The translations under genes and the position numbers were made by a program. A stretch of DNA of 62,695 bases, counting the filler. It is 7 parts of 7 records of this genome, joined end to end, with 100 filler letters (N's around TTAATTAATTAA, not from the genome) between each part and the next. Parts side by side here need not be neighbours in the genome. Positions count along the whole stretch, not along the records: positions 15,737 to 25,193 come from SRR31156797_25228; 6 more parts are not named here. One strand, written 5' to 3'. Within the stretch, counting starts at the first letter, position 1; the number at the start of each line of letters is the position of its first letter. Below, one piece after another: positions 9,110-57,012 of this stretch. Below the pieces are notes generated by a model. The model was not told the DNA's origin and ran no database searches. It saw nothing but the letters and a program-made list of their open reading frames with translations.

Positions 9110-9209
9110 NNNNNNNNNNNNNNNNNNNNNNNNNNNNNNNNNNNNNNNNNNNNTTAATTAATTAANNNNNNNNNNNNNNNNNNNNNNNNNNNNNNNNNNN
9201 NNNNNNNNN
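9110..9209. other. Artificial contig spacer
   Basis: N-run, TTAATTAATTAA, N-run; 100 nt; composition shifts sharply across it. Confidence 0.98.
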
Positions 9210-15636: not shown

Positions 15637-15736
15637 NNNNNNNNNNNNNNNNNNNNNNNNNNNNNNNNNNNNNNNNNNNNTTAATTAATTAANNNNNNNN
15701 NNNNNNNNNNNNNNNNNNNNNNNNNNNNNNNNNNNN
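15637..15736. other. Artificial contig spacer
   Basis: Same N/TTAATTAATTAA/N linker. Confidence 0.98.
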
Positions 15737-15757
15737 ACATAATCATTATATTTGAAA
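15737..15757 (+). repeat. 21-bp terminal direct repeat of contig 3, left copy
   Basis: ACATAATCATTATATTTGAAA, identical to 25173-25193. Confidence 0.95.
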
Positions 15758-15809
15758 CTGTCAGAAAGATTTCTTGTCACAAACAACACAATAAGCTAGA
15801 AAATAACCA

Positions 15810-15838
15810 TTGACACCTGTCACGTTACAGGTTATTTT
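15810..15838 (+). promoter_or_regulatory. sigma70 promoter of higBA with a palindromic operator in the spacer
   Basis: TTGACA-17 bp-TATTTT. Spacer holds CCTGTCACGTTACAGG (14/16 palindromic). ATG is 5 nt after the -10 box with no SD. Confidence 0.75.
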
Positions 15839-15843
15839 TATTT

Positions 15844-16122
15844 ATGATAGTCAGCTTTAAACATAAAGGACTTGAGAAATTCTATAAGATCGGCAGCAAG
15901 GCTGGCATTAACGCTAACCATGTAAAAAGGCTCAGTGCAATACTTGCGAGACTTGACGTAGCTTCAGTACCTGATGATATGGATTTACCAGGGCTGTTTC
16001 TGCACAAGCTGACGGGTAACCTTGAAGGATTTTATGCTGTAACAGTTTCGGGTAATTGGAGAGTTACGTTTAAGTTCGAAGATGGCAATGTCCGTGTTGT
16101 TGACTATCTGGACTATCACTAG
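15844..16122 (+). CDS. higB: HigB toxin (RelE/ParE superfamily)
   Basis: MIVSFKHKGLEKFY...LHKLTG.L.G..AVTVSGNWRVTF.F...VDYLDYH. Confidence 0.93.
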   Translation: MIVSFKHKGLEKFYKIGSKAGINANHVKRLSAILARLDVASVPDDMDLPGLFLHKLTGNLEGFYAVTVSGNWRVTFKFEDGNVRVVDYLDYH

Positions 16123-16181
16123 CCAAAGGCTGAACGAGTCCACAACAATAATTGGCGAGTACTAAATCATCGGAGGTAACT

Positions 16182-16469
16182 ATGAGTATGTTTAACCCGC
16201 CCCACCCAGGCGAAGTGATAAGAGAGCTTTGTATTGATCCTTTAGAACTCAGCGTTACAGATGCAGCCAAGGGACTAGGTGTCAGCAGAAAGGCTCTGTC
16301 TGAGCTTTTAAATGGTAAATCAGGCATATCTCCGCTTATGGCAATCAGGCTCTCAAAAGGGTTCGGCGGTACACCGGAAAGCTGGCTGAAACAACAGGTA
16401 GCCTATGACCTCTGGAAAGCACAAAAGGATGCTGACAATATCAAAGTCATTAATTTCAGAGCATCATAA
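16182..16469 (+). CDS. higA: HigA antitoxin (HTH)
   Basis: [11 protein letters not shown]...AA..LGVSR..LS..LNG..GISP.MAIRL...WL..Q..YDL; SD GGAGG before ATG 16182. Confidence 0.93.
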
Positions 16470-16568
16470 GCTTTCTTTCTCGTTTAGATACGTAGGCATC
16501 AAGTGTCGCTTTCTAATAAGTTAGAAAGTAACATAACTATATTTTTAGTTACTTTTTATAACTCAGAA

Positions 16569-16594
16569 GTCTCTACAAAACCAGGGGCGATTCA
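16569..16594 (-). repeat. Right terminal inverted repeat, IS3-family-like
   Basis: Reverse complement TGAATCGCCCCTGGTTTTGTAGAGAC; its TGA is the stop of the truncated 7TM-DISM frame. Confidence 0.82.
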
Positions 16595-17650
16595 GAACGC
16601 CATTATAAACAGCTTGCCTTCAGGAGCTTTCCGAATGGTCAGCACTATTGCCATACCCAGCAGCAACAGAATGAATACGGGACCGTTCAGCCATAGAAAT
16701 CTGGCGAAATAGCTGTAGTAACAGGTTGTAACTGTGAAACTGCCAGCTATACCAACTGAGGCTAGTATCAAAAAGTATTTATGTATTAAAGGAAATTTAC
16801 TCCTTGTCCTGAAAAGTTTTACAGCAAACAGTGCAAACATCGTATACGCCAGAATTGTCGCCACACCAACAAGGATATCCGAAAGCACGTGATACCACTC
16901 AGGGATAACAATAAACCCAAAACCTTGTATAGTCAGCCTGTTCAAAGCCATCAGCAGGAGGTATGCGGCATAATACCCGTACGAAAGATCCCTCATCCTT
17001 ATGGCTGAAAAAGCATTTATCACAAACAGCGAAAATATGATCATCATAATAGCTACATGTGTGAAAGTATATTTTGCCGTATCAGCTATAAGCTTTTCAT
17101 TGCTGATTATGCTCCCTTCAAATGTGTGCACGCTATTGGTGTGTATCCTCACATAAACATTTATCAGTGCCAAACTGCTATCCAAACGAGTTACCATGAG
17201 TGGGTGTGGAGTTTCCCTTTCGGAAATGGGGGTGTGGTCTCCCAGTTCAGACTTCTCATATGAGGCCGCTGAAAAAGGATCTTTACCCTGCTGTATATAG
17301 ACGGTCAGTTCATTCATTACAGGGTTGGTTATCAATATATATATCTGCTCTTTATGGTCGGGCGAGGTCTTAACCTGAAAGTGTATCCAGCTTGTTTTCT
17401 CTGTATATGAGCGATTTAAACCGCTCGGTATCTTTTTGAACCGCTCGTGATTCTCAGAAGTGAGTACATCGGTTAAAGTCAGCTCCCCTTGGTTGTCTGA
17501 AAACATTTCAAAATGACCTGAGAGAGGATATTTATCACTGCCGTTCAGCTAGACAACCTTTATGTCGTCAGCATATGCAACTGATGCGTTTGTGAAAACG
17601 AACACCATCAACAATATAAAAAGTATATTATTAACCAGTTTGCCGCTCAT
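16592..17650 (-). pseudogene. 7TM-DISM sensor pseudogene
   Basis: Signal peptide from ATG 17650; in-frame TAG at codon 34 (17549-17551); 7TMR-DISMED2-like and TM segments; cut at the inverted repeat before any output domain. Confidence 0.8.
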
Positions 17651-18063
17651 AAAAAACTCCTGATAATTACTTTTATACCTTAGAAGTGCCTATAAAACTA
17701 GGGATAACTCCTCTTTTGTAGTTTGTTTGGTTTATCTGGATGTCCACTAAAATCAGTATGGACCGCTTCTTCAAAAAACTGCTGCCAAAGTCGATACGCA
17801 ATTCATCAACAAAATTCACATATAGATTAATCCGATTAACTAAAAAAAATATTAAAAACTAACTTGCAAAATTTAAATAAAGTAATTAGCATTATGTCGA
17901 TACTAGTTTGTTATTTTATTGTGCGGCTTATTTTTATATTTCTAAATTCATAAAAGGTTTTCTTTTGCCTCAAACTAGTTGGTCGGCAATCCATAGTTTT
18001 GCATCCAAAGCTATGCTTGCGTAATATTATTCACATATTGATTATCATTGCGAGGAGACACAT

Positions 18064-21000
18064 ATGAAAAGACTAAATCCATTCTGGATTATCAGAAAGG
18101 GGCTGACCTTTATGGTAGCAGCCTCTGTGTTGCTGTCTGCATCTGTATCAGAAGCAGGACCGGCAGGGGGAGTGGTAACAGGTGGTAACGCAACCATCAC
18201 ACAGACCACGGAAACAACAACAATCAACCAATACAGCCAGAATGCTGCTATCAACTGGCAGTCATTCAACATCAACAGTGGCGAAACAGTTAACTTTAAC
18301 CAGCCAAATGTTCAGTCGATCACACTGAACAGGGTGGTGGGCAACGAAGGATCTGTGATAGACGGAGCACTGAACGCCAACGGGCAGGTTTTCCTGCTGA
18401 ACTCCAATGGAGTACTGTTTGGCAAAAATGCATCGATCAACACATCCGGGCTAGTCGCCACCACAATGAGCCTCAGCGATGAGGACTTTATGGCTGAGAA
18501 TTACAGCTTTAGTGATGCATCCGATGCATCCATCATCAACATGGGAACGATCAGCATAGCCGATGCTGGGTACGCTGCACTGCTAGGATCTGACGTGCAA
18601 AACTCTGGTAAAATCAGCGCCGTAAAAGGGAAGATATACATGACAGGCGCAGACTCTGCCACCATCAATCTGAACGGCAACTCTCTGGTCAGTCTGACAG
18701 TGGACAAGAGCACTGTAGATTCCTTGGTGCAGAACAGCGGTGCTGTGATCGCCAACGGAGGGGACATATACCTAACCACATCTTCAGCAGAGGACTTGGT
18801 AGCTGGCGTTGTGAACAACACAGGGCTGGTACAGGCAGAGAGCATCGGTGACCTGACAGGTAATGTTATCATATATGCCCACGGAGGCGCAGCCGAGATA
18901 GGCGGCACCATAACCACTGGGTCAGGAGAAGGATTTGTCGAAACATCCGGGGCAAACATGACCATCGCAGAGGGTGCCAGCGTCACAACAGGTCACTGGC
19001 TGATAGACCCTACGGACATAACCATCGACTCTGCCGCAGCAGACACACTTGAGTCTCAGTTGTCGAGCGGCGATGCAAGCTTAGAGGCGGATGAAACTAT
19101 CACTGTAGATGCAGACATAGATGTAGATGCAAACACGCTGACACTGACTGCCGGCACAGACATCACAGTAAACAGCACAATAAACGTAAACAACTCTGCT
19201 GAGATCGACTTCGAGTATGGCGGCGACCTGACAGTTACACTGGACAGCGGCACCGTCAACCTGAACGACTCCAGCACACTAACAATAAACAGCACAGCAT
19301 ATACTGTGATCAGAGACTATGCTGGCTGGTCAGCCATGAACAGCGGACTGAGCGGCAGCTATGCCCTTGGCGCAGACCTCGACCTAACAGGTGAATCCTA
19401 TACCGTGATAGGCACCAGCGGGTCAAAATTCACTGGCACATTCAACGGCCTGGGACATACAGTCTCCAACCTGAATATCAATACAGCAGACTCAGAGGTA
19501 GGTCTCTTTGGCTATGCCTATAACGCAAACCTGAGCAACCTACTAGTAACAAATGCCAGCGTCATAACAAGCGGCACATCAGCAGGAATACTTGCCGGAT
19601 ATATAGAAGGTACCAGCGTATCCAACGTAGGCGTCTCAGGTGACGTTGAAGGATCTATGTTTATAGGCGGTTTAATCGGCGACATGGAGGCAGGTTCCAG
19701 CGTTACAGGCAGCTATTCATCAGGAACTTCTACTGGTACATCAACATCAGGCATCGCCCCTGTAGGTGGGTTGATCGGTTGGATATACTCCGAAGCCGCA
19801 GATGTTTCTGTTTCTGACAGTTATTCATCTGCCACAGTCTCTGGATTAGCAGACCAAGCTGGCGGACTGATAGGATATGCTCAATACACCACAATTACAG
19901 ATAGCTATGCAACAGGAGACGTAAGCAGCGATCGCTTTGTCGGAGGTCTCGTTGGCGGTATGGGTGGACAATCTAGCGTGAGCGGCAGTTATGCCACAGG
20001 CGCAATAGTAGCTACTGGCGCTTTTGCTGGTGGACTAATTGGTAAATTATATGAAGCAAACAGCCTTACCAACAGCTACGCAACAGGAAACGTAACCGGC
20101 GGAGGAAACTATACCGGCGGTCTGCTCGGTTCTGTAGATACTTCTACGGTAACAAATACATATGCCACAGGTAATGTAACCTCTACAGCCTCTGCTGTTG
20201 GAGGACTTATTGGTGGAACACAAGGTTCTACGAGTAACATTTCAGGCAGCTATGCCACAGGTACAGTAAGCGGTGTCAGTTATGTAGGAGGGCTGTTCGG
20301 TATACTTTCAGCCAGTTCAGCATTATCCGACAGCTACTCCGCTGGTAATGTGACAGGCACAGGAAACTACACAGGCGGACTGACAGGATATACATCAAGC
20401 AGCACCAGCATTACAGACAGCTACACCAACGGTGATGTAGACGGTAACGACTATGTTGGTTCACTCACAGGATATCTGAATGGCGGAACCATCACAAACA
20501 GCTATGCACTCGGTGCTGTCTCTGGATCAAGTAACGTAGGCGGACTGCTTTATTACAACAGCGGTACAGTGACAGACAGCTACTTTAGCTCTGACACCAA
20601 CCCAGCAATGGCAGAAGACACATATAACGTAGCTGCTACAGAGTCCGAAATATTGATCGCGGTGCATGACAACTGGGACTCTGGTACATGGACAGATGCA
20701 AACACCAACATGGGTGTTCCTCTGCTCCAGTGGCAGAATATCACAGAAATATCACTCGATACGGATGGCACCTATACATATGGTACAGGATACGGTGCCT
20801 CAGACTTTCTGTCTGATGTGGCGGACTACAGCGACTACAGCTATATCGTAACAGATGCCTCCGACAACGATGTCACAGCATATGCCGAGGCTGGTACACT
20901 CGGCGCAGGCACATACACTGTGTCGCTGCTGGTAAAAGGCGAGTATAATGTAACAAATAACGGATCCAGCTTTACGATAGACAAAAAAAATCTGGACTAT

Positions 21001-22107
21001 TCGATAAACGCAGATTCTATTACATACGGTGACATATTCACCACATCGATCAACTACTCCGGCACTGTCTCCGGTGGAACAGATATAACTGGCACCACCA
21101 CATACACTGTACTCGATGCAAGCAACAACGATGTCACAATACAAGCAGAAGCTGGCACTCTCGGTGCAGGAACATACACCGTAGCAACGACTCTGACAGA
21201 TGACAACTACACAGCATCGGGCTCCACGACCACATTCACCATAGGCAAGAAAGAGCTCAGTTACACTCTCAGCTCCGACACCATGACCTACGGTGATACA
21301 TTCAGCATAACAGCCGAATACACTGGTACAATCGCAGACATTAGCGGTTCTACAGAATTCACTGTATACGATGCTAACAACAATGACGTAACAGCAGATG
21401 CAGAAGCTGGCACTCTCGGTGCTGGAATATACACCGTAGGTACGACTCTAACAGATAATAACTACACAGCATCGGGTTCCACAACTACATTCACTGTGAA
21501 TAAGAAGACCCTCAGCTATACGCTCTCACCATCCACTCTGATGTACGGCACAGAACTGGACTCTGTCAGCATCAGCTACGAAGGTAATCCTGATGATATT
21601 TCAGGCACACTGACATACACAGTACTAGACCTATACGGCAACGATGTGACAGCAGACGCAGAAGCGGGCAAGCTGAAGGAAGGAACATATACCATCACAG
21701 CCAGCCTGACAGATAACAACTACCTGCTGTCGGAAACAGAGTATCAGATGGTAGTAAAGGCTAATGAAAAGTTCGATGAGGTAGCCAGTATCACTCCGGC
21801 GATCTTTAACAACATAGCTATACAGCCTAGTATACCAGTAGGAGGGGGATCAGAAATTGGTGATTCCTTTGGTGGAGGCACATCTAGCCTTGACAGATTC
21901 TCTGAGTCGCTGGGCGATGACACAGGGGCTTCTTCTGGCGAGCAAACTGGCGGATCAGCAGCAGGCGCATCCGGAGATACCGGCGGTAGCTCTGGCTCTG
22001 ATGGAGAGGGAGGATCAACAGGATATGTTGATGCTGGCAGCGGATTTGCCAACAGTTATTCTGGCCTTGTTGAGATAATCAATGGCGGAATCAGCGTGCC
22101 GGAATAA
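18064..22107 (+). CDS. Two-partner secretion exoprotein TpsA (haemagglutinin-type TPS domain, GLUG-like motifs, C-terminal repeats)
   Basis: INWQSFNI, LNRV.G, NGQVFLLNSNG, WLIDP; many VGGL.G...SYATG.V motifs. Confidence 0.9.
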   Translation: MKRLNPFWIIRKGLTFMVAASVLLSASVSEAGPAGGVVTGGNATITQTTETTTINQYSQNAAINWQSFNINSGETVNFNQPNVQSITLNRVVGNEGSVIDGALNANGQVFLLNSNGVLFGKNASINTSGLVATTMSLSDEDFMAENYSFSDASDASIINMGTISIADAGYAALLGSDVQNSGKISAVKGKIYMTGADSATINLNGNSLVSLTVDKSTVDSLVQNSGAVIANGGDIYLTTSSAEDLVAGVVNNTGLVQAESIGDLTGNVIIYAHGGAAEIGGTITTGSGEGFVETSGANMTIAEGASVTTGHWLIDPTDITIDSAAADTLESQLSSGDASLEADETITVDADIDVDANTLTLTAGTDITVNSTINVNNSAEIDFEYGGDLTVTLDSGTVNLNDSSTLTINSTAYTVIRDYAGWSAMNSGLSGSYALGADLDLTGESYTVIGTSGSKFTGTFNGLGHTVSNLNINTADSEVGLFGYAYNANLSNLLVTNASVITSGTSAGILAGYIEGTSVSNVGVSGDVEGSMFIGGLIGDMEAGSSVTGSYSSGTSTGTSTSGIAPVGGLIGWIYSEAADVSVSDSYSSATVSGLADQAGGLIGYAQYTTITDSYATGDVSSDRFVGGLVGGMGGQSSVSGSYATGAIVATGAFAGGLIGKLYEANSLTNSYATGNVTGGGNYTGGLLGSVDTSTVTNTYATGNVTSTASAVGGLIGGTQGSTSNISGSYATGTVSGVSYVGGLFGILSASSALSDSYSAGNVTGTGNYTGGLTGYTSSSTSITDSYTNGDVDGNDYVGSLTGYLNGGTITNSYALGAVSGSSNVGGLLYYNSGTVTDSYFSSDTNPAMAEDTYNVAATESEILIAVHDNWDSGTWTDANTNMGVPLLQWQNITEISLDTDGTYTYGTGYGASDFLSDVADYSDYSYIVTDASDNDVTAYAEAGTLGAGTYTVSLLVKGEYNVTNNGSSFTIDKKNLDYSINADSITYGDIFTTSINYSGTVSGGTDITGTTTYTVLDASNNDVTIQAEAGTLGAGTYTVATTLTDDNYTASGSTTTFTIGKKELSYTLSSDTMTYGDTFSITAEYTGTIADISGSTEFTVYDANNNDVTADAEAGTLGAGIYTVGTTLTDNNYTASGSTTTFTVNKKTLSYTLSPSTLMYGTELDSVSISYEGNPDDISGTLTYTVLDLYGNDVTADAEAGKLKEGTYTITASLTDNNYLLSETEYQMVVKANEKFDEVASITPAIFNNIAIQPSIPVGGGSEIGDSFGGGTSSLDRFSESLGDDTGASSGEQTGGSAAGASGDTGGSSGSDGEGGSTGYVDAGSGFANSYSGLVEIINGGISVPE
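20854..21740 (+). repeat. Four ~85-87-aa intragenic repeats in TpsA
   Basis: D...NDVT..AEAG.L..G.YT units start at 20854, 21115, 21370 and 21628. Confidence 0.85.
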
Positions 22108-22126
22108 ACAAGTGAAGGAATATAGA

Positions 22127-23806
22127 ATGAACATTAATAAACTGATTATAATAATATTAACTGTATCGTTTGCGGCTGTGTCCTATGCCGCACCCATACC
22201 AAACATCGGAGATGTGATAAAGCAGGCAGAGCCACCACGCGACCTGCCCCAGAAAGAGAACGCAGTGCCGGAGATAAGGGAGAAGCTCCGACCTGCTATG
22301 AAAAGCGCAGATATGACCACCATATTTGTCAAAGGGTTTACCATATCCGGCAACATGTCTATCAAGACAGATGTGCTCACAGACATCGCCAACAAACCGG
22401 AGAATATCAATAAAAACATGACATTTGCTGATATATCCGCTGTGGCAGACCAGATAACAAAGTACTACAGAGCCAACGGCTTCTTTGTAGCAAAGGCATA
22501 CATACCTAAGCAGCAGATGACTAACGGCATCATAGAGATAGTGGTGCTGGAGGGTAAGTATGGCAAGATAAACGTAAACAATAGCTCGCTGGTGAGCGAT
22601 AAACGTATCAACAAGACGATCGACAAAGCCACAGGGCAAGATGTCATCACAGAGAAGATCATCGAGCGTCAGATGATGCTGGTGAATCAAATACCGGGAG
22701 CCAACCTGAAAAAGATTAACATCAGACCAGGGGAAGAATTTGGTACCAGCGACTTTGACATCAATATAGCCCCTACCCCCAGATTTTTTGGCTACTTTCT
22801 GGGTGACAACTACGGGCTTAGATACACTGGTGTCACACGTATACTGGCGGGAGCCGGAATTAACTCGCCATTTGGGATAGGTGACAAGCTGTTTGTCAGC
22901 GGTATCCTAAGCACTACGGGCGGACTGAAAAACGGCAGAGCATCATACAAGCTGCCGCTGAACTCCAGCGGGCTGACAGGTGCGATATCCTATACCAGAA
23001 CAGACTATTCCCTCGCAGAGGAATACGACTCACTCGATGCATCAGGTCAGTCTGATACAATAGACCTAACATTCAGCTATCCGCTGATCCTCTCAAAGCT
23101 GGAGAGTTCATACGCAACACTCACGTTCACATCCAGACAGATGGAGGATGAGGTAAAGGCATTTGAGATCAAAGACGAAAAGGACACTCTGGCGATAACA
23201 GCAGAGCTTAGCTATAAAAAGGTTTATCCTCTGTTTGGTTTCCGAAACACTTCGGAGCTGACAGGAGCCTATAAGCTGGGAAAGCTCGACTTTGACAACG
23301 ATGTAGCTGAAGCAACTGACGCGGCTGGGGCTGATACGAAAGGCACATACCACAAGCTGAACATCACAGCTAAACAAAGGATTCAGTTCAGCAGAAAGTG
23401 GAGCCTCACAGCTAACTTACAAGCTCAGCAAGTGCTGACAGACAAGAACCTAGATGGTAGTGAAGACTTTTCGACTGGCGGCGTATACGGTGTACGTGTC
23501 TTCCCAAGTAGTGAGCATAGTGCAGAAAACGGCTACATCCTGAACACAGAGCTGTTCTACAGACTGCCAAACTATAAGAAACTCGTCACAATGATCAGTA
23601 TCTTTGTCGACACAGCATATGCCAAGCCACAAGACGACTATGCTGACGAAGGCGGCAGAAGCCTTTCTGACACTGGCGCCGGTTTCTATGCATATTATGA
23701 CACATTATTCTTAAAAGCATATTACGCATACGCTCTGGGCTCTCAGGTCGAGAGCGAACCAAAGTATGACAGCAGATTCCTGCTACAGGCGGGGCTCACA
23801 TTTTAA
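22127..23806 (+). CDS. TpsB transporter (ShlB/FhaC/HecB family)
   Basis: Signal peptide, POTRA (YYR..GF..A.AYIP.Q), DNYG, GG..GVR.F, C-terminal Phe. Start set at ATG 22127. Confidence 0.92.
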   Translation: MNINKLIIIILTVSFAAVSYAAPIPNIGDVIKQAEPPRDLPQKENAVPEIREKLRPAMKSADMTTIFVKGFTISGNMSIKTDVLTDIANKPENINKNMTFADISAVADQITKYYRANGFFVAKAYIPKQQMTNGIIEIVVLEGKYGKINVNNSSLVSDKRINKTIDKATGQDVITEKIIERQMMLVNQIPGANLKKINIRPGEEFGTSDFDINIAPTPRFFGYFLGDNYGLRYTGVTRILAGAGINSPFGIGDKLFVSGILSTTGGLKNGRASYKLPLNSSGLTGAISYTRTDYSLAEEYDSLDASGQSDTIDLTFSYPLILSKLESSYATLTFTSRQMEDEVKAFEIKDEKDTLAITAELSYKKVYPLFGFRNTSELTGAYKLGKLDFDNDVAEATDAAGADTKGTYHKLNITAKQRIQFSRKWSLTANLQAQQVLTDKNLDGSEDFSTGGVYGVRVFPSSEHSAENGYILNTELFYRLPNYKKLVTMISIFVDTAYAKPQDDYADEGGRSLSDTGAGFYAYYDTLFLKAYYAYALGSQVESEPKYDSRFLLQAGLTF

Positions 23807-23816
23807 TAACTGACTC

Positions 23817-23843
23817 AAGCCCGGTGTAAAAGCTGGGCTTTTT
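23817..23843 (+). terminator. Rho-independent terminator after tpsB
   Basis: AAGCCCGG-tgtaaaag-CTGGGCTT then a T tract. Confidence 0.75.
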
Positions 23844-24179
23844 CATAACTCATTACAGGTGTTCACGTATGAATTCAGGGCGGTTAGTGGTAATGCTTGA
23901 TGCTCTGGCATCTATCAATCTGCTAGCATCCGCCGGATCGTCTATCATCCACACGTTTTAAAAATATCTGAAGTACATTGAGCACCAGCGACGTATCCAT
24001 CCTATGGCTAAAAGATCAGCTGTAATAACCGCTACGGAATATTCTTAATACTTTACATCGTAGGTGGATACAGAAACGCTCCCGGAGTCCGCAGCGAAGA
24101 AGACCTCTCCCTTTTTTAAGATATCTCGCTCCTGTTAGAGCCGATTTGGCAAGCATACTTGAGTTGATTTCAAGATCAT

Positions 24180-24200
24180 TTCGATCCCCACCGCCTCCAT
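24180..24200 (+). other. tmRNA 3'-end fragment, putative att core
   Basis: TTCGATCCCCACCGCCTCCA fits a T-loop plus acceptor 3' strand; the 5' T-stem strand and the rest of the gene are absent. Confidence 0.6.
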
Positions 24201-24471
24201 TTTTATTCTCTTTATTATCAATGACTTATATTTCAAATAGGCCGTTTTCGTAATATTTTCGTACAGATTTATCCTTGTTTATCAACGACTTACAATGGGC
24301 TCATTTTCTGAAAAAGTTAACTGCTTTATTATAAGTGAGTTAAGATGCATTATAATTTATTCACACACCCAATTGTACTACATCATATAAATTAAGAGTC
24401 TCAATAATTGAGGTCATCAGTATCACAAAGTGATATTATCAACTATATGCAAACATAGAGGGTGCCTAAAA

Positions 24472-25131
24472 ATGAGTAACATTGAAGACCTTGTTAAAGA
24501 CGGATTCAGTTCCGAGCTTAAATCAAGTAATGATTTAGCATTTGTATCATTAAAAATAGCTTTGACAGCTTATTACTCAACATATCAGTCAATGCAAATC
24601 TATTTTAGTTGGCATTATGATGATAGTGAACTTTCTGACGCTGATTTAGATGATAAATATCCTTATTCCTATTTTGAGTTATATGCCGAAACAATTGTAC
24701 ATTTTCAACATTTTTTTGAGTTACTTTTTAAACAAATATTGAGAAACATTCATGCTCTGTTAGCAACTGACACAAGCAATAAACATGACCTACTATTTAA
24801 GCTACTACATAATGCGCCAGTAACTGAAGAGGAACAAAATAAATTAAACTCAATAGAGTTCAGTAAAGCTCTTGAACGACTGACAAGCTTAATAAAAAAA
24901 GAATTGATTGCCAATCATATCGAACTTCAATTTATTAAGGATCATCATAAAGTATTTTCTGAACTAAACGCGTTAAGAAATCGCATTTGGCATTGGGGTA
25001 CTTATATTCTCCGATATAAGTCTTTAGACATTTTTATAGGAAAACACATCCTCCCTTTATTAATTGAGTTCTCAAAACTCGCTTCATTTAAAAACCTAAA
25101 TTTTACTTGGCAATATAACACCCCTAACTGA
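24472..25131 (+). pseudogene. Hypothetical protein with a HEPN-like RxxxxH motif, truncated by the element end
   Basis: LRNRIWH motif; AT-rich; the stop TGA is the first 3 nt of the inverted repeat. Confidence 0.6.
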
Positions 25132-25154
25132 ATTGCCACTGAATTAGTAGAGAC
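25129..25154 (+). repeat. Left terminal inverted repeat, IS3-family-like
   Basis: TGAATTGCCACTGAATTAGTAGAGAC, 21/26 identical to the reverse complement of 16569-16594. Confidence 0.82.
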
Positions 25155-25172
25155 ATTATAACTTTATATCAT

Positions 25173-25193
25173 ACATAATCATTATATTTGAAA
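25173..25193 (+). repeat. 21-bp terminal direct repeat of contig 3, right copy
   Basis: Identical to 15737-15757. Confidence 0.95.
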
Positions 25194-25293
25194 NNNNNNN
25201 NNNNNNNNNNNNNNNNNNNNNNNNNNNNNNNNNNNNNTTAATTAATTAANNNNNNNNNNNNNNNNNNNNNNNNNNNNNNNNNNNNNNNNNNNN
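25194..25293. other. Artificial contig spacer
   Basis: Same linker. Confidence 0.98.
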
Positions 25294-31931: not shown

Positions 31932-32031
31932 NNNNNNNNNNNNNNNNNNNNNNNNNNNNNNNNNNNNNNNNNNNNTTAATTAATTAANNNNNNNNNNNNN
32001 NNNNNNNNNNNNNNNNNNNNNNNNNNNNNNN
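31932..32031. other. Artificial contig spacer
   Basis: Same linker. Confidence 0.98.
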
Positions 32032-49015: not shown

Positions 49016-49098
49016 TGCCCAAGGCGGGACTTGAACCCGCACGTCCGTAGGACACACGGCCCTCAACCGTGCCTGTCTACCAATTTCAGCACTTGGGC
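49016..49098 (-). tRNA. tRNA-Leu(GAG)
   Basis: GCCCAAG acceptor stem, anticodon arm CACGG-TTGAGGG-CCGTG, long variable arm, GGTTCAAGTCC; CCA not encoded. Confidence 0.95.
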
Positions 49099-49176: not shown

Positions 49177-49276
49177 NNNNNNNNNNNNNNNNNNNNNNNN
49201 NNNNNNNNNNNNNNNNNNNNTTAATTAATTAANNNNNNNNNNNNNNNNNNNNNNNNNNNNNNNNNNNNNNNNNNNN
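49177..49276. other. Artificial contig spacer
   Basis: Same linker. Confidence 0.98.
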
Positions 49277-56912: not shown

Positions 56913-57012
56913 NNNNNNNNNNNNNNNNNNNNNNNNNNNNNNNNNNNNNNNNNNNNTTAATTAATTAANNNNNNNNNNNNNNNNNNNNNNNNNNNNNNNN
57001 NNNNNNNNNNNN
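56913..57012. other. Artificial contig spacer
   Basis: Same linker. Confidence 0.98.

What the first reader, a model, noticed from the sequence alone, without database searches (positions are those of the whole stretch)
15737..16594. Transposase-less IS3-like mini-element whose only cargo is a HigBA toxin-antitoxin pair
Seen: joining 25129-25193 to 15758-16594 through the 21-bp overlap gives a 902-bp unit. It is bounded by 26-bp imperfect inverted repeats (TGAATTGCCACTGAATTAGTAGAGAC and TGAATCGCCCCTGGTTTTGTAGAGAC, 21/26) and contains only a promoter, higB and higA. Each end supplies the TGA that ends a neighbouring frame. Known: IS3-family elements have TG...CA ends of this style, and non-autonomous derivatives move using a transposase in trans. 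Inference: an addictive MITE-like cassette that spreads a TA module and stabilises whatever it flanks.
Basis: partly seen in the sequence, partly recalled or inferred. Interest (0 to 1): 0.85.

Follow-up and report, generated by a model that had tools for sequence, protein, structure and literature searches.

The report
IS3-type ends around a higBA pair
Two end sequences typical of an IS3-family jumping gene enclose only a HigB/HigA toxin-antitoxin pair and no transposase, so this looks like a stranded cargo cassette of a known kind, with nothing yet showing that it moves.

Summary
The window is seven contigs joined by spacers. The finding lies on a 9,457-bp contig (15737-25193) whose ends share 21 bases. 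Closing it into a circle gives a 902-bp unit bounded by 26-nt inverted repeats that match at 21 of 26 positions. Only 1 of 200 shuffled circles had an equally good pair.

The ends are IS3-family ends. Copy B matches the left end of ISPsy29 at 25 of 26 positions and the right end of ISAs5 at 24 of 26. Inside the unit are a promoter with a palindrome, an intact higB and an intact higA. No transposase trace was found anywhere in the window.

Both neighbouring genes are cut at the repeat tips, so the tips are real breakpoints. The shared TGA stops are a by-product of this truncation.

Mobility is not shown:
- I found no second copy of the unit.
- There is no target duplication.
- No partner IS was found.
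- The two flanks belong to different genes.
- Contiguity rests on the assembly overlap alone.

The unit is best read as a mobile-insertion-cassette-like IS3 derivative, probably stranded. It is a new variant of a known kind and of moderate interest.

The parts
25129..25154 (+). End A: 26-nt terminal inverted repeat, tip at 25129. It is the more diverged of the two ends.
   Evidence: A matches B at 21/26, ISPsy29's left end at 20/26 and the Acetobacter solo end at 22/26. It has no match in plasmids.
25155..25193 (+). Sub-terminal non-coding stretch next to end A. Bases 25173-25193 are the 21-base overlap with the contig start.
15737..15757 (+). The 21-base stretch identical to 25173-25193. The whole 902-bp join rests on it.
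   Evidence: This is the only one of the seven contigs with a terminal overlap.
15810..15838 (+). Promoter-like site (TTGACA, 17 nt, TATTTT). It ends 5 nt before the higB ATG.
   Evidence: 10 of 12 consensus positions. The scan found 2 sites in the region; shuffles averaged 1.7, so the site alone is not significant.
15815..15832 (+). Perfect 6+6 palindrome between the promoter hexamers. It is a likely HigA operator (inference).
   Evidence: One search reports it as a stem. The operator role is inferred from how HigA antitoxins repress their own promoters (PMC6987408, abstract as listed).
15844..16122 (+). higB, a 92-aa RelE-like mRNA-interferase toxin. It looks intact.
   Evidence: PF05015, E 8e-20, residues 4-92 on profile positions 2-91 of 91; relatives up to 97% identical, nearly all 92 aa.
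16182..16469 (+). higA, a 95-aa helix-turn-helix antitoxin. It looks intact.
   Evidence: TIGR02607, E 3e-28, profile positions 1-80 of 81. HTH_3.
16569..16594 (-). End B: 26-nt terminal inverted repeat, tip at 16594. It resembles an IS3-family left end.
   Evidence: B matches ISPsy29's left end at 25/26 and ISAs5's right end at 24/26. 102 of 72,556 plasmid records match it.
16592..17650 (-). Flank 1: the front half of a 7TMR-DISM sensor histidine kinase gene. It is cut at the B tip and also carries an in-frame TAG at 17549-17551.
   Evidence: the 7TM domain stops at profile position 159 of 205; 27 of the 30 best relatives are 640-694 aa, and the fragment aligns to about their residues 21-372; a full relative adds HisKA and HATPase_c. 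One search shows the in-frame stop.
24472..25131 (+). Flank 2: the first ~217 codons of a ~365-aa protein family with no Pfam domain, cut at the A tip.
   Evidence: 65 of 69 relatives are 338-396 aa; in 9 of the 10 relatives I aligned (357-371 aa), the match covers only their first 212-219 residues and ends 4-13 nt before the tip. No remainder was found in the window.
17671..17711 (-). Copy C: a third, degenerate copy of the end-plus-leader sequence. It has the same orientation as B and lies just upstream of the kinase gene's start.
   Evidence: family D16: 33 nt at 82% identity to B; similarity runs inward beyond the repeat. The distance from repeat to ATG is 35 nt, against 36 nt in ISPsy29.

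Best explanation
The unit is a transposase-less derivative of an IS3-family insertion sequence of the ISPsy29/ISAs5 type. Two ends from one IS species, correctly oriented with TG...CA tips, enclose an intact, self-regulated higBA toxin-antitoxin operon. In ISfinder terms it has the structure of a mobile insertion cassette (MIC).

Shown: the ends are IS3-type. Both tips are breakpoints of neighbouring genes. The cargo is only higBA. No transposase is in the window.

Inferred: the ends were once used by an IS3-type OrfAB transposase, supplied in trans or present before it was lost. This produced an insertion and at least one further end-mediated or copy-to-copy rearrangement, and that is why the two flanks are different truncated genes. 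HigA represses the promoter through the palindrome, and HigB cleaves mRNA when HigA decays, so loss of the DNA segment is penalised.

With no partner IS, no second copy and a decayed left end, the cassette is most likely stranded now. It probably acts simply as the addiction module of the 9.4-kb circle or tandem unit it sits on.
For: Ends:
- B matches ISPsy29's left end at 25/26 and ISAs5's right end at 24/26.
- 102 plasmid records match end B, often at several places per record.
- I inspected 5 of those hits. In 4 of them (H3, H18, H20, H21) the match is the tip of an element about 1,231 bp long with the opposite end in place. In 3 of the 5 (H3, H20, H21) an IS3-family transposase CDS is annotated beside it.
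- ISPsy29's ORFs carry HTH_Tnp_1 and rve domains.
- PMC3189936 lists ISPsy26 (synonym ISPsy29) as IS3 family, at least 1231 nt, 2 CDS, 28-nt repeats (passages).
- A, B and the Acetobacter end share G at position 24, where all four ISPsy29/ISAs5 ends have C. This argues that A and B come from the same IS species.
- A and B differ no more (21/26) than the two ends of ISPsy29 or of ISAs5 do (22/26 each).

Significance: 1 of 200 shuffles gave as good a repeat pair.

Breakpoints: both flanking genes are truncated within 0-13 nt of the tips.

Cargo: HigB and HigA are full length, with a promoter and palindrome upstream. tblastx of two full IS copies against the window gave nothing better than E 0.011 over 21 residues, apart from the end matches themselves.
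Against: - There is no 3-4-bp target duplication: AAC lies left of A and GAA right of B.
- The flanks are two different genes in convergent orientation, so this is not a simple insertion. The missing halves are not in the window.
- No further copy was found in the other six contigs.
- The plasmid collection has no match to the right-hand 858 bp of the unit plus 106 bp of flank, at E up to 1e-5.
- One scan of 185,579 species' genomes with the A/B consensus gave a single isolated end and no cassette.
- End A has no match in plasmids even at E up to 10, and it matches known IS ends at only 16-20 of 26 positions. It may no longer be functional.
- The third copy C shows that IS debris accumulates here, which favours a scar reading.
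- Contiguity of A with higBA rests on a 21-base contig-end overlap only.
Confidence: 0.55

Rival explanations
1. IS scars. A and B are leftovers of two separate IS3-family insertions or rearrangements that happen to lie on either side of a resident higBA locus. The 902 bp never moved as a unit. The region is a graveyard of decayed IS ends and broken genes.
For: - A third degenerate end-like copy C lies 1.1 kb away.
- Both neighbours are broken genes, and one also carries an in-frame stop.
- There is no target duplication.
- A is much more decayed than B, and only B finds relatives in plasmids.
- Isolated end fragments of this IS group do occur elsewhere: a 132-bp right-end fragment beside ISAs5 in L003 and a solo end in Acetobacter malorum.
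Against: - The two ends face each other in the correct orientation at an IS-like spacing: 902 bp, against about 1,231 bp for full copies.
- They share the position-24 G.
- Such a pair occurred in 1 of 200 shuffles.
- No transposase fragment remains inside. If two whole IS copies had decayed in place, some coding remnant would be expected.
Confidence: 0.25
2. Assembly artefact. The 21-base overlap does not reflect a real junction. It could be a collapsed repeat or a mis-closed loop in the assembly graph. In that case end A and the higBA-plus-end-B segment belong to different copies or loci, and the 902-bp unit as described does not exist at one place.
For: - The join crosses a contig boundary.
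- The circle of 9,436 bp has no recognisable replication gene.
- The contigs in the window range from 35% to 62% GC, so the assembly is mixed.
- Repeats such as IS ends are where assemblies break or mis-join.
Against: - The two contig ends tile exactly, with a k-mer-sized overlap. This is what a closed loop in a de Bruijn graph gives and is not expected from two independent extensions into a repeat. It is the only contig of seven with such an overlap.
- The join yields a coherent element with matched, correctly oriented ends.
- The contig reads through both tips into unique flanks without breaking.
Confidence: 0.15
3. Chance. The inverted repeat is a coincidence in AT-rich non-coding DNA and has nothing to do with transposition.
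For: A 27-nt repeat at 81% complementarity is short. The repeat finder lists 202 inverted pairs on the contig, several of similar length.
Against: - 1 of 200 shuffles reached this quality.
- B matches the tip of an annotated IS3-family element at 25/26.
- Two unrelated genes break within 0-13 nt of the tips.
Confidence: 0.03

Closest known systems
Mobile insertion cassettes (MICs): IS- or Tn-type inverted repeats around passenger genes, without a transposase. An example is the Tn3-derived MICs carrying TALE genes on Xanthomonas plasmid pXAC64.
   Same: IS-type terminal repeats, no transposition gene, and protein-coding cargo. The definitions are in passages of PMC4133298 and PMC7157771.
   Different: The known examples that I read about derive from Tn3-family ends. 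MIC231 from IS231 is recalled, not seen in a call. Here the ends are IS3-family and the only cargo is a TA pair. Mobility, copy number and target duplication are not shown here.
ISPsy29 (synonym ISPsy26) of Pseudomonas savastanoi pv. phaseolicola 1448A and ISAs5 of Aeromonas salmonicida: autonomous IS3-family elements.
   Same: The terminal repeats: B matches at 25/26 and 24/26, with TG...CA tips. Copies B and C also show a leader-like stretch inside the end.
   Different: Those elements are 1,231-1,232 bp and encode OrfA (HTH_Tnp_1) and OrfB (rve). This unit is 902 bp, has no transposase, and carries higBA on the strand opposite to where orfAB would run if B is the left end.
Toxin-antitoxin pairs carried inside Tn3-family transposons, for example Tn4662a with tad-ata and TnXc4.
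   Same: A type II TA pair rides inside a transposable element, and is thought to stabilise the element or its carrier (PMC7157771, title, start of abstract and passages; PMC4133298, passages).
   Different: Those transposons keep their transposase and resolvase, and the TA pair sits beside them. Here the TA pair is the only content, and the ends belong to a different family with a different mechanism.
MITEs, for example MITEPsy1 (100 nt) and TIMEs (262 bp).
   Same: Non-autonomous elements with repeats like those of a resident IS, which would depend on a transposase in trans (PMC3189936 and PMC4133298, passages).
   Different: MITEs are about 30-300 bp, non-coding and multicopy. This unit is 902 bp, coding, and seen once.
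HigBA type II toxin-antitoxin modules.
   Same: Toxin gene first. HigB matches PF05015 over its full length, HigA matches TIGR02607, and a palindrome lies in the promoter.
   Different: Nothing unusual in the module itself. Only its bracketing by IS3-type ends is unusual.

Membership tests
IS3-family insertion sequence (autonomous) | Terminal inverted repeats homologous to those of family members, with 5'-TG...CA-3' tips | tested here: met
   B matches ISPsy29's left end at 25/26. A matches at 16-20/26. Both tips read TGA...TCA. That TG...CA tips characterise the family is recalled knowledge.
IS3-family insertion sequence (autonomous) | orfA and orfB encoding a DDE (rve) transposase | tested here: not met
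   tblastx of two full IS copies against the window found no coding match (best E 0.011 over 21 residues). Pfam on the unit's ORFs gives only HigB and HTH domains.
IS3-family insertion sequence (autonomous) | 3-4-bp direct target duplication | tested here: not met
   AAC lies left of A and GAA right of B. For comparison, 1 of 4 full copies examined in plasmids has a perfect 3-bp duplication (GGG, L004). The size of the duplication in this family is recalled knowledge.
Mobile insertion cassette (MIC) | IS-type inverted repeats around passenger gene(s), with no transposase | tested here: met
   The definition is in PMC4133298 and PMC7157771.
Mobile insertion cassette (MIC) | Evidence of movement: further copies with other flanks, target duplication | tested here: not met
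   No copy in the other six contigs. No plasmid match to the right-hand 858 bp of the unit plus flank. One isolated end in genome contigs. No duplication. Metagenome contigs were closed, so the search is incomplete.
Mobile insertion cassette (MIC) | A cognate transposase in the same cell | not testable with these tools
   None in the 62.7-kb window. The rest of the source genome is not available, and the window's contigs are of mixed origin.
MITE | Small (about 30-300 bp), non-coding, multicopy | tested here: not met
   902 bp, two intact genes, one copy. The definition is in PMC4133298.
HigBA type II toxin-antitoxin | RelE-fold HigB toxin gene followed by an HTH HigA antitoxin gene | tested here: met
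   PF05015 E 8e-20 over the full length; TIGR02607 E 3e-28, above its cut-off; toxin gene first. Activity was not tested.
Plasmid (for the 9.4-kb circle) | A replication initiator or other replication module | tested here: not met
   Pfam and NCBIfam scans of the six long ORFs show none. The only candidate feature is three 19-nt direct repeats at 24210-24342. Replicons that lack a recognisable initiator gene cannot be excluded.

The most novel reading that the evidence does not exclude
The 902-bp unit is a live 'addictive' cassette: an IS3-family MIC whose only cargo is higBA. It would be moved in trans by a resident ISPsy29/ISAs5-type OrfAB, and its ends would also drive deletions or recombination. 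The 9.4-kb circle or tandem unit, with two genes cut at the tips, would then be a product of its activity, held in the population by the toxin.
Probability: 0.15. Interest if true: 0.6.

Novelty: new variant of a known kind. Interest (0 to 1): 0.35.

Why it matters
If the cassette does move, it would be a minimal selfish unit: two transposon ends plus an addiction module. It could spread using another element's transposase and then resist loss. That would extend the known link between TA pairs and Tn3-family transposons to the copy-out-paste-in IS3 family. It would also offer one route by which TA pairs scatter through chromosomes. As the evidence stands, it is a single, possibly stranded copy on a short metagenomic contig. 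Its main value is as a lead to follow in the full assembly.

Tried and rejected
- Chance repeat: rejected (1 of 200 shuffles; IS match).
- Natural gene ends at the tips: rejected. Both genes are truncated.
- Simple insertion into one gene: rejected. The flanks are different genes, and tblastn of 10 relatives found no remainder in the window.
- Transposase remnant inside the unit or elsewhere in the window: none.
- More copies in the window: none. Beyond self-matches, the best blastn-short hit was 17 nt at E 0.054.
- DNA relatives of window 15737-16700 (the right-hand 858 bp of the unit plus 106 bp of flank) in plasmids: none.
- End A in plasmids: none.
- The genome-contig scan gave one isolated end in Acetobacter malorum, with no transposase beside it. 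Neither A nor B itself was returned, so the source assembly is not in that collection.
- Integron cassette or attC reading: I considered it from the sequence and dropped it once the ends matched IS3 tips.
- Known RNA family at the repeats: Rfam found only one tRNA, elsewhere in the window.
- Host identity: not resolved. TpsB's best named relatives are only 41-42% identical.
- PMC8265657 ('mobilizable' higBA of IncC plasmids) has nothing on inverted repeats or transposases.
- A resemblance of these ends to other IS3 subgroups that I recalled from memory was not used.

Full report
**What the window is.** The 62,695 bases are seven contigs joined by 100-base spacers of N runs around TTAATTAATTAA. 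Their GC content ranges from 35% to 62%, so they are unlikely to come from one genome. The finding lies on the third contig, 15737-25193 (9,457 bp, GC 44%). It is the only contig whose two ends share a terminal overlap, of 21 bases. In the window itself the two halves lie 8.5 kb apart.

**The observation.**
- Repeat A is at 25129-25154 (+) and repeat B at 16569-16594 (-). They match at 21 of 26 positions, or 22 of 27 with one more base.
- The joined unit is 902 bp, with GC 39.8% against 44.6% for the rest of the circle.
- Inside it are a promoter-like site at 15810-15838 (10 of 12 consensus positions) with a perfect 6+6 palindrome between the hexamers.
- higB is at 15844-16122 (92 aa; PF05015, E 8e-20, full length). 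higA is at 16182-16469 (95 aa; TIGR02607, E 3e-28).
- The ORFs 24430-25131 (+) and 16592-17506 (-) both stop on the tip TGA.
- As a null, I scanned the real circle and 200 dinucleotide-preserving shuffles for inverted pairs of at least 22/27 enclosing 100-1500 bp. The real circle has one such pair. Of the 200 shuffles, 1 had any.

**The ends are IS3-family ends.**
- A 50-nt query over end B matched 102 of 72,556 plasmid records, mostly Pseudomonas (57), Ralstonia (18) and Aeromonas (11), often at several places per record.
- I inspected five of these hits. In H20 (P. savastanoi 1448A large plasmid) the match is the left tip of an element whose CDS is annotated 'IS3-like element ISPsy29 family transposase'.
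- In H21 (A. salmonicida pAsa5) it is the right tip of an ISAs5-family element. In H3 (Diaphorobacter) it is the left tip of an IS3-family element.
- In H18 (Acinetobacter johnsonii) no transposase is listed in the incomplete PLSDB gene table. The opposite end lies 1,232 bp away and the element is flanked by a 3-bp GGG duplication.
- In H1 (Marinomonas) no transposase is listed.
- The full copies measure 1,231-1,232 bp. ISPsy29's two ORFs carry HTH_Tnp_1 and rve domains.
- Bardaji et al. list ISPsy26 (synonym ISPsy29) as IS3 family, at least 1231 nt, two CDS and 28-nt repeats (PMC3189936, passages).
- B matches the ISPsy29 left end at 25 of 26 positions and the ISAs5 right end at 24 of 26. A matches the four known ends at 16-20 of 26.
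- A and B share G at position 24 where all four ISPsy29/ISAs5 ends have C. They differ from each other (21/26) about as much as the two ends of one IS do (22/26 in both ISPsy29 and ISAs5). I take them to be the two ends of one unidentified IS species.

**The tips are real breakpoints.**
- The 304-aa ORF on the minus strand matches 7TMR-DISMED2 and then 7TMR-DISM_7TM only up to profile position 159 of 205, exactly at the B tip.
- In a search without length limits, 27 of the 30 best relatives are 640-694 aa, and the fragment aligns to about their residues 21-372. The best relative has the complete 7TM domain followed by HisKA and HATPase_c. The window therefore holds the front half of a sensor kinase gene.
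- That gene starts at 17650 with a signal peptide and also has an in-frame TAG at codon 34.
- The 233-aa ORF on the other side belongs to a family with no Pfam domain. Of its 69 relatives, 65 are 338-396 aa (that search covered only lengths 128-408).
- I aligned 10 of those 69. Nine, at 357-371 aa, match by their first 212-219 residues only, and the match ends 4-13 nt before the A tip. The tenth is 245 aa.
- tblastn of those ten relatives found no remainder anywhere in the window.
The shared TGA stops simply reflect truncated frames reading into the tips. Each would be in frame by chance one time in three.

**What argues against a working mobile unit.**
- The three bases outside the tips are AAC and GAA, so there is no target duplication.
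- The two flanks are different genes that converge on the unit, which one insertion cannot produce. At least one further event is needed, either an end-mediated rearrangement or recombination between two copies.
- No IS3-type coding sequence is present in the window. The best tblastx hit was E 0.011 over 21 residues.
- No other copy of either end occurs in the other six contigs.
- Window 15737-16700, which covers the right-hand 858 bp of the unit plus 106 bp of flank, has no DNA relative in the plasmid collection. End A has none there even at E up to 10.
That match agrees with B at 25/26 but stands alone in a gene's upstream region, with no transposase beside it.
- A third, degenerate copy (C, 17671-17711) lies in the same orientation as B, just upstream of the kinase gene. 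It resembles B for about 50 nt inward. Its repeat sits 35 nt from the ATG, compared with 36 nt in ISPsy29. This shows repeated IS activity and decay in this stretch.

**The circle.** The 9,436-bp circle also carries an intact two-partner secretion pair. tpsA (18064-22107) has a TPS domain and GLUG repeats; tpsB (22082-23806) has POTRA_2 and ShlB domains. I found no replication gene. The overlap could reflect a small replicon with an unrecognised origin, a tandem amplification, an excised circle, or a mis-closed graph loop. Without reads I cannot tell which. Recombination between two direct copies of the cassette, one inserted in each of the two broken genes, would give exactly this circle. That is inference only.

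**Comparison with what is known.** In structure the unit fits a mobile insertion cassette. MICs are named alongside MITEs as elements that a transposase acting in trans may move (PMC4133298, passages). They are described as 'devoid of transposition genes' (PMC7157771, passages). It does not fit a MITE, which is about 30-300 bp, non-coding and multicopy. TA pairs inside transposons are established for the Tn3 family (PMC7157771; Tn4662a in PMC4133298). A 2025 review lists ICEs, prophages, integrons and transposons as TA carriers (PMC12548467, passages). A 2026 study finds TA pairs co-occurring with cointegrate-forming transposases and, less strongly, with copy-and-paste transposases (PMC13617665, passages). 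In five literature searches, judged from listings, abstract beginnings and the passages I read, I saw no IS3-derived, transposase-less cassette whose only cargo is a TA pair. The IS3-family rules I rely on (TG...CA tips, 3-4-bp duplications, copy-out-paste-in through a circle, a preference of the transposase for acting in cis) are recalled knowledge, not call results.

**Verdict.** 'IS3-like, transposase-less, TA-only' is supported. 'MITE-like element that spreads and stabilises its flanks' is not shown.
- Best reading (0.55): a MIC-like IS3 derivative, probably stranded.
- Rivals: independent IS scars around a resident higBA (0.25), an assembly artefact at the join (0.15), and chance (0.03).
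- Novelty: a new variant of a known kind.
- Interest: 0.35.

Noticed in passing
window 1-62695; spacers at 9110-9209, 15637-15736, 25194-25293, 31932-32031, 49177-49276, 56913-57012: The window is seven contigs joined by N/TTAATTAATTAA spacers, with GC from 35% to 62%. It is probably a mixed or metagenomic set, so neighbouring contigs say nothing about this element's host.
   Followed up: partly
window 15737-25193: This contig closes into a 9,436-bp circle through a 21-base overlap. It carries an intact two-partner secretion pair (tpsA 18064-22107 with GLUG repeats; tpsB 22082-23806) but no recognisable replication gene. TpsB's best unnamed relative is 69% identical. The best named ones (Arcobacter, Sulfurospirillum, Sporohalobacter) are 41-42% identical.
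   Followed up: partly
window 17549-17551 (- strand): There is an in-frame TAG at codon 34 of the truncated 7TMR-DISM kinase gene, right after its signal peptide. The gene is doubly disabled.
   Followed up: yes
window 17650-17711 (- strand): Copy C resembles an IS3 left end plus leader. Its repeat lies 35 nt from the kinase gene's ATG, against 36 nt to the orfA ATG in ISPsy29, and both share the word ATCAGGAG before the ATG. Whether the kinase gene borrowed an IS-derived ribosome site and start codon is unexplained.
   Followed up: partly
L001 6742-6767 (Acetobacter malorum NZ_LHZC01000054.1): An isolated 26-nt end matches B at 25/26. It sits 18 nt upstream of a gene's start, with no transposase beside it. 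An ORF about 800 bp away looked to me like a transposase tail, which I did not test.
   Followed up: partly
L003 2503-2634 (A. salmonicida pAsa5, NC_009350.1): A 132-bp fragment of the ISAs5 right end is duplicated directly in front of a full ISAs5 copy. It is an example of the end debris this IS group leaves behind.
   Followed up: no
window 24472-25131 and relatives P0001-P0069: The truncated ORF belongs to a widespread family of about 365 aa (69 clusters, from Gammaproteobacteria to Clostridia) with no Pfam domain in the three members I scanned. One source names a 303-aa member 'RiboL-PSP-HEPN domain-containing'.
   Followed up: partly
window 24210-24342: Three 19-nt direct repeats, spaced 64 and 50 nt apart, lie upstream of the truncated ORF. 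They look like iterons, but there is no initiator gene beside them.
   Followed up: no
L005 2486-2530 and 3079-4602 (Marinomonas algicola plasmid NZ_CP061942.1): An IS3-type end with an 18-nt tip duplication lies next to a group II intron reverse transcriptase gene. No transposase is listed there.
   Followed up: no
window 49016-49098 (- strand): This tRNA is the only Rfam match in the window at gathering threshold.
   Followed up: no
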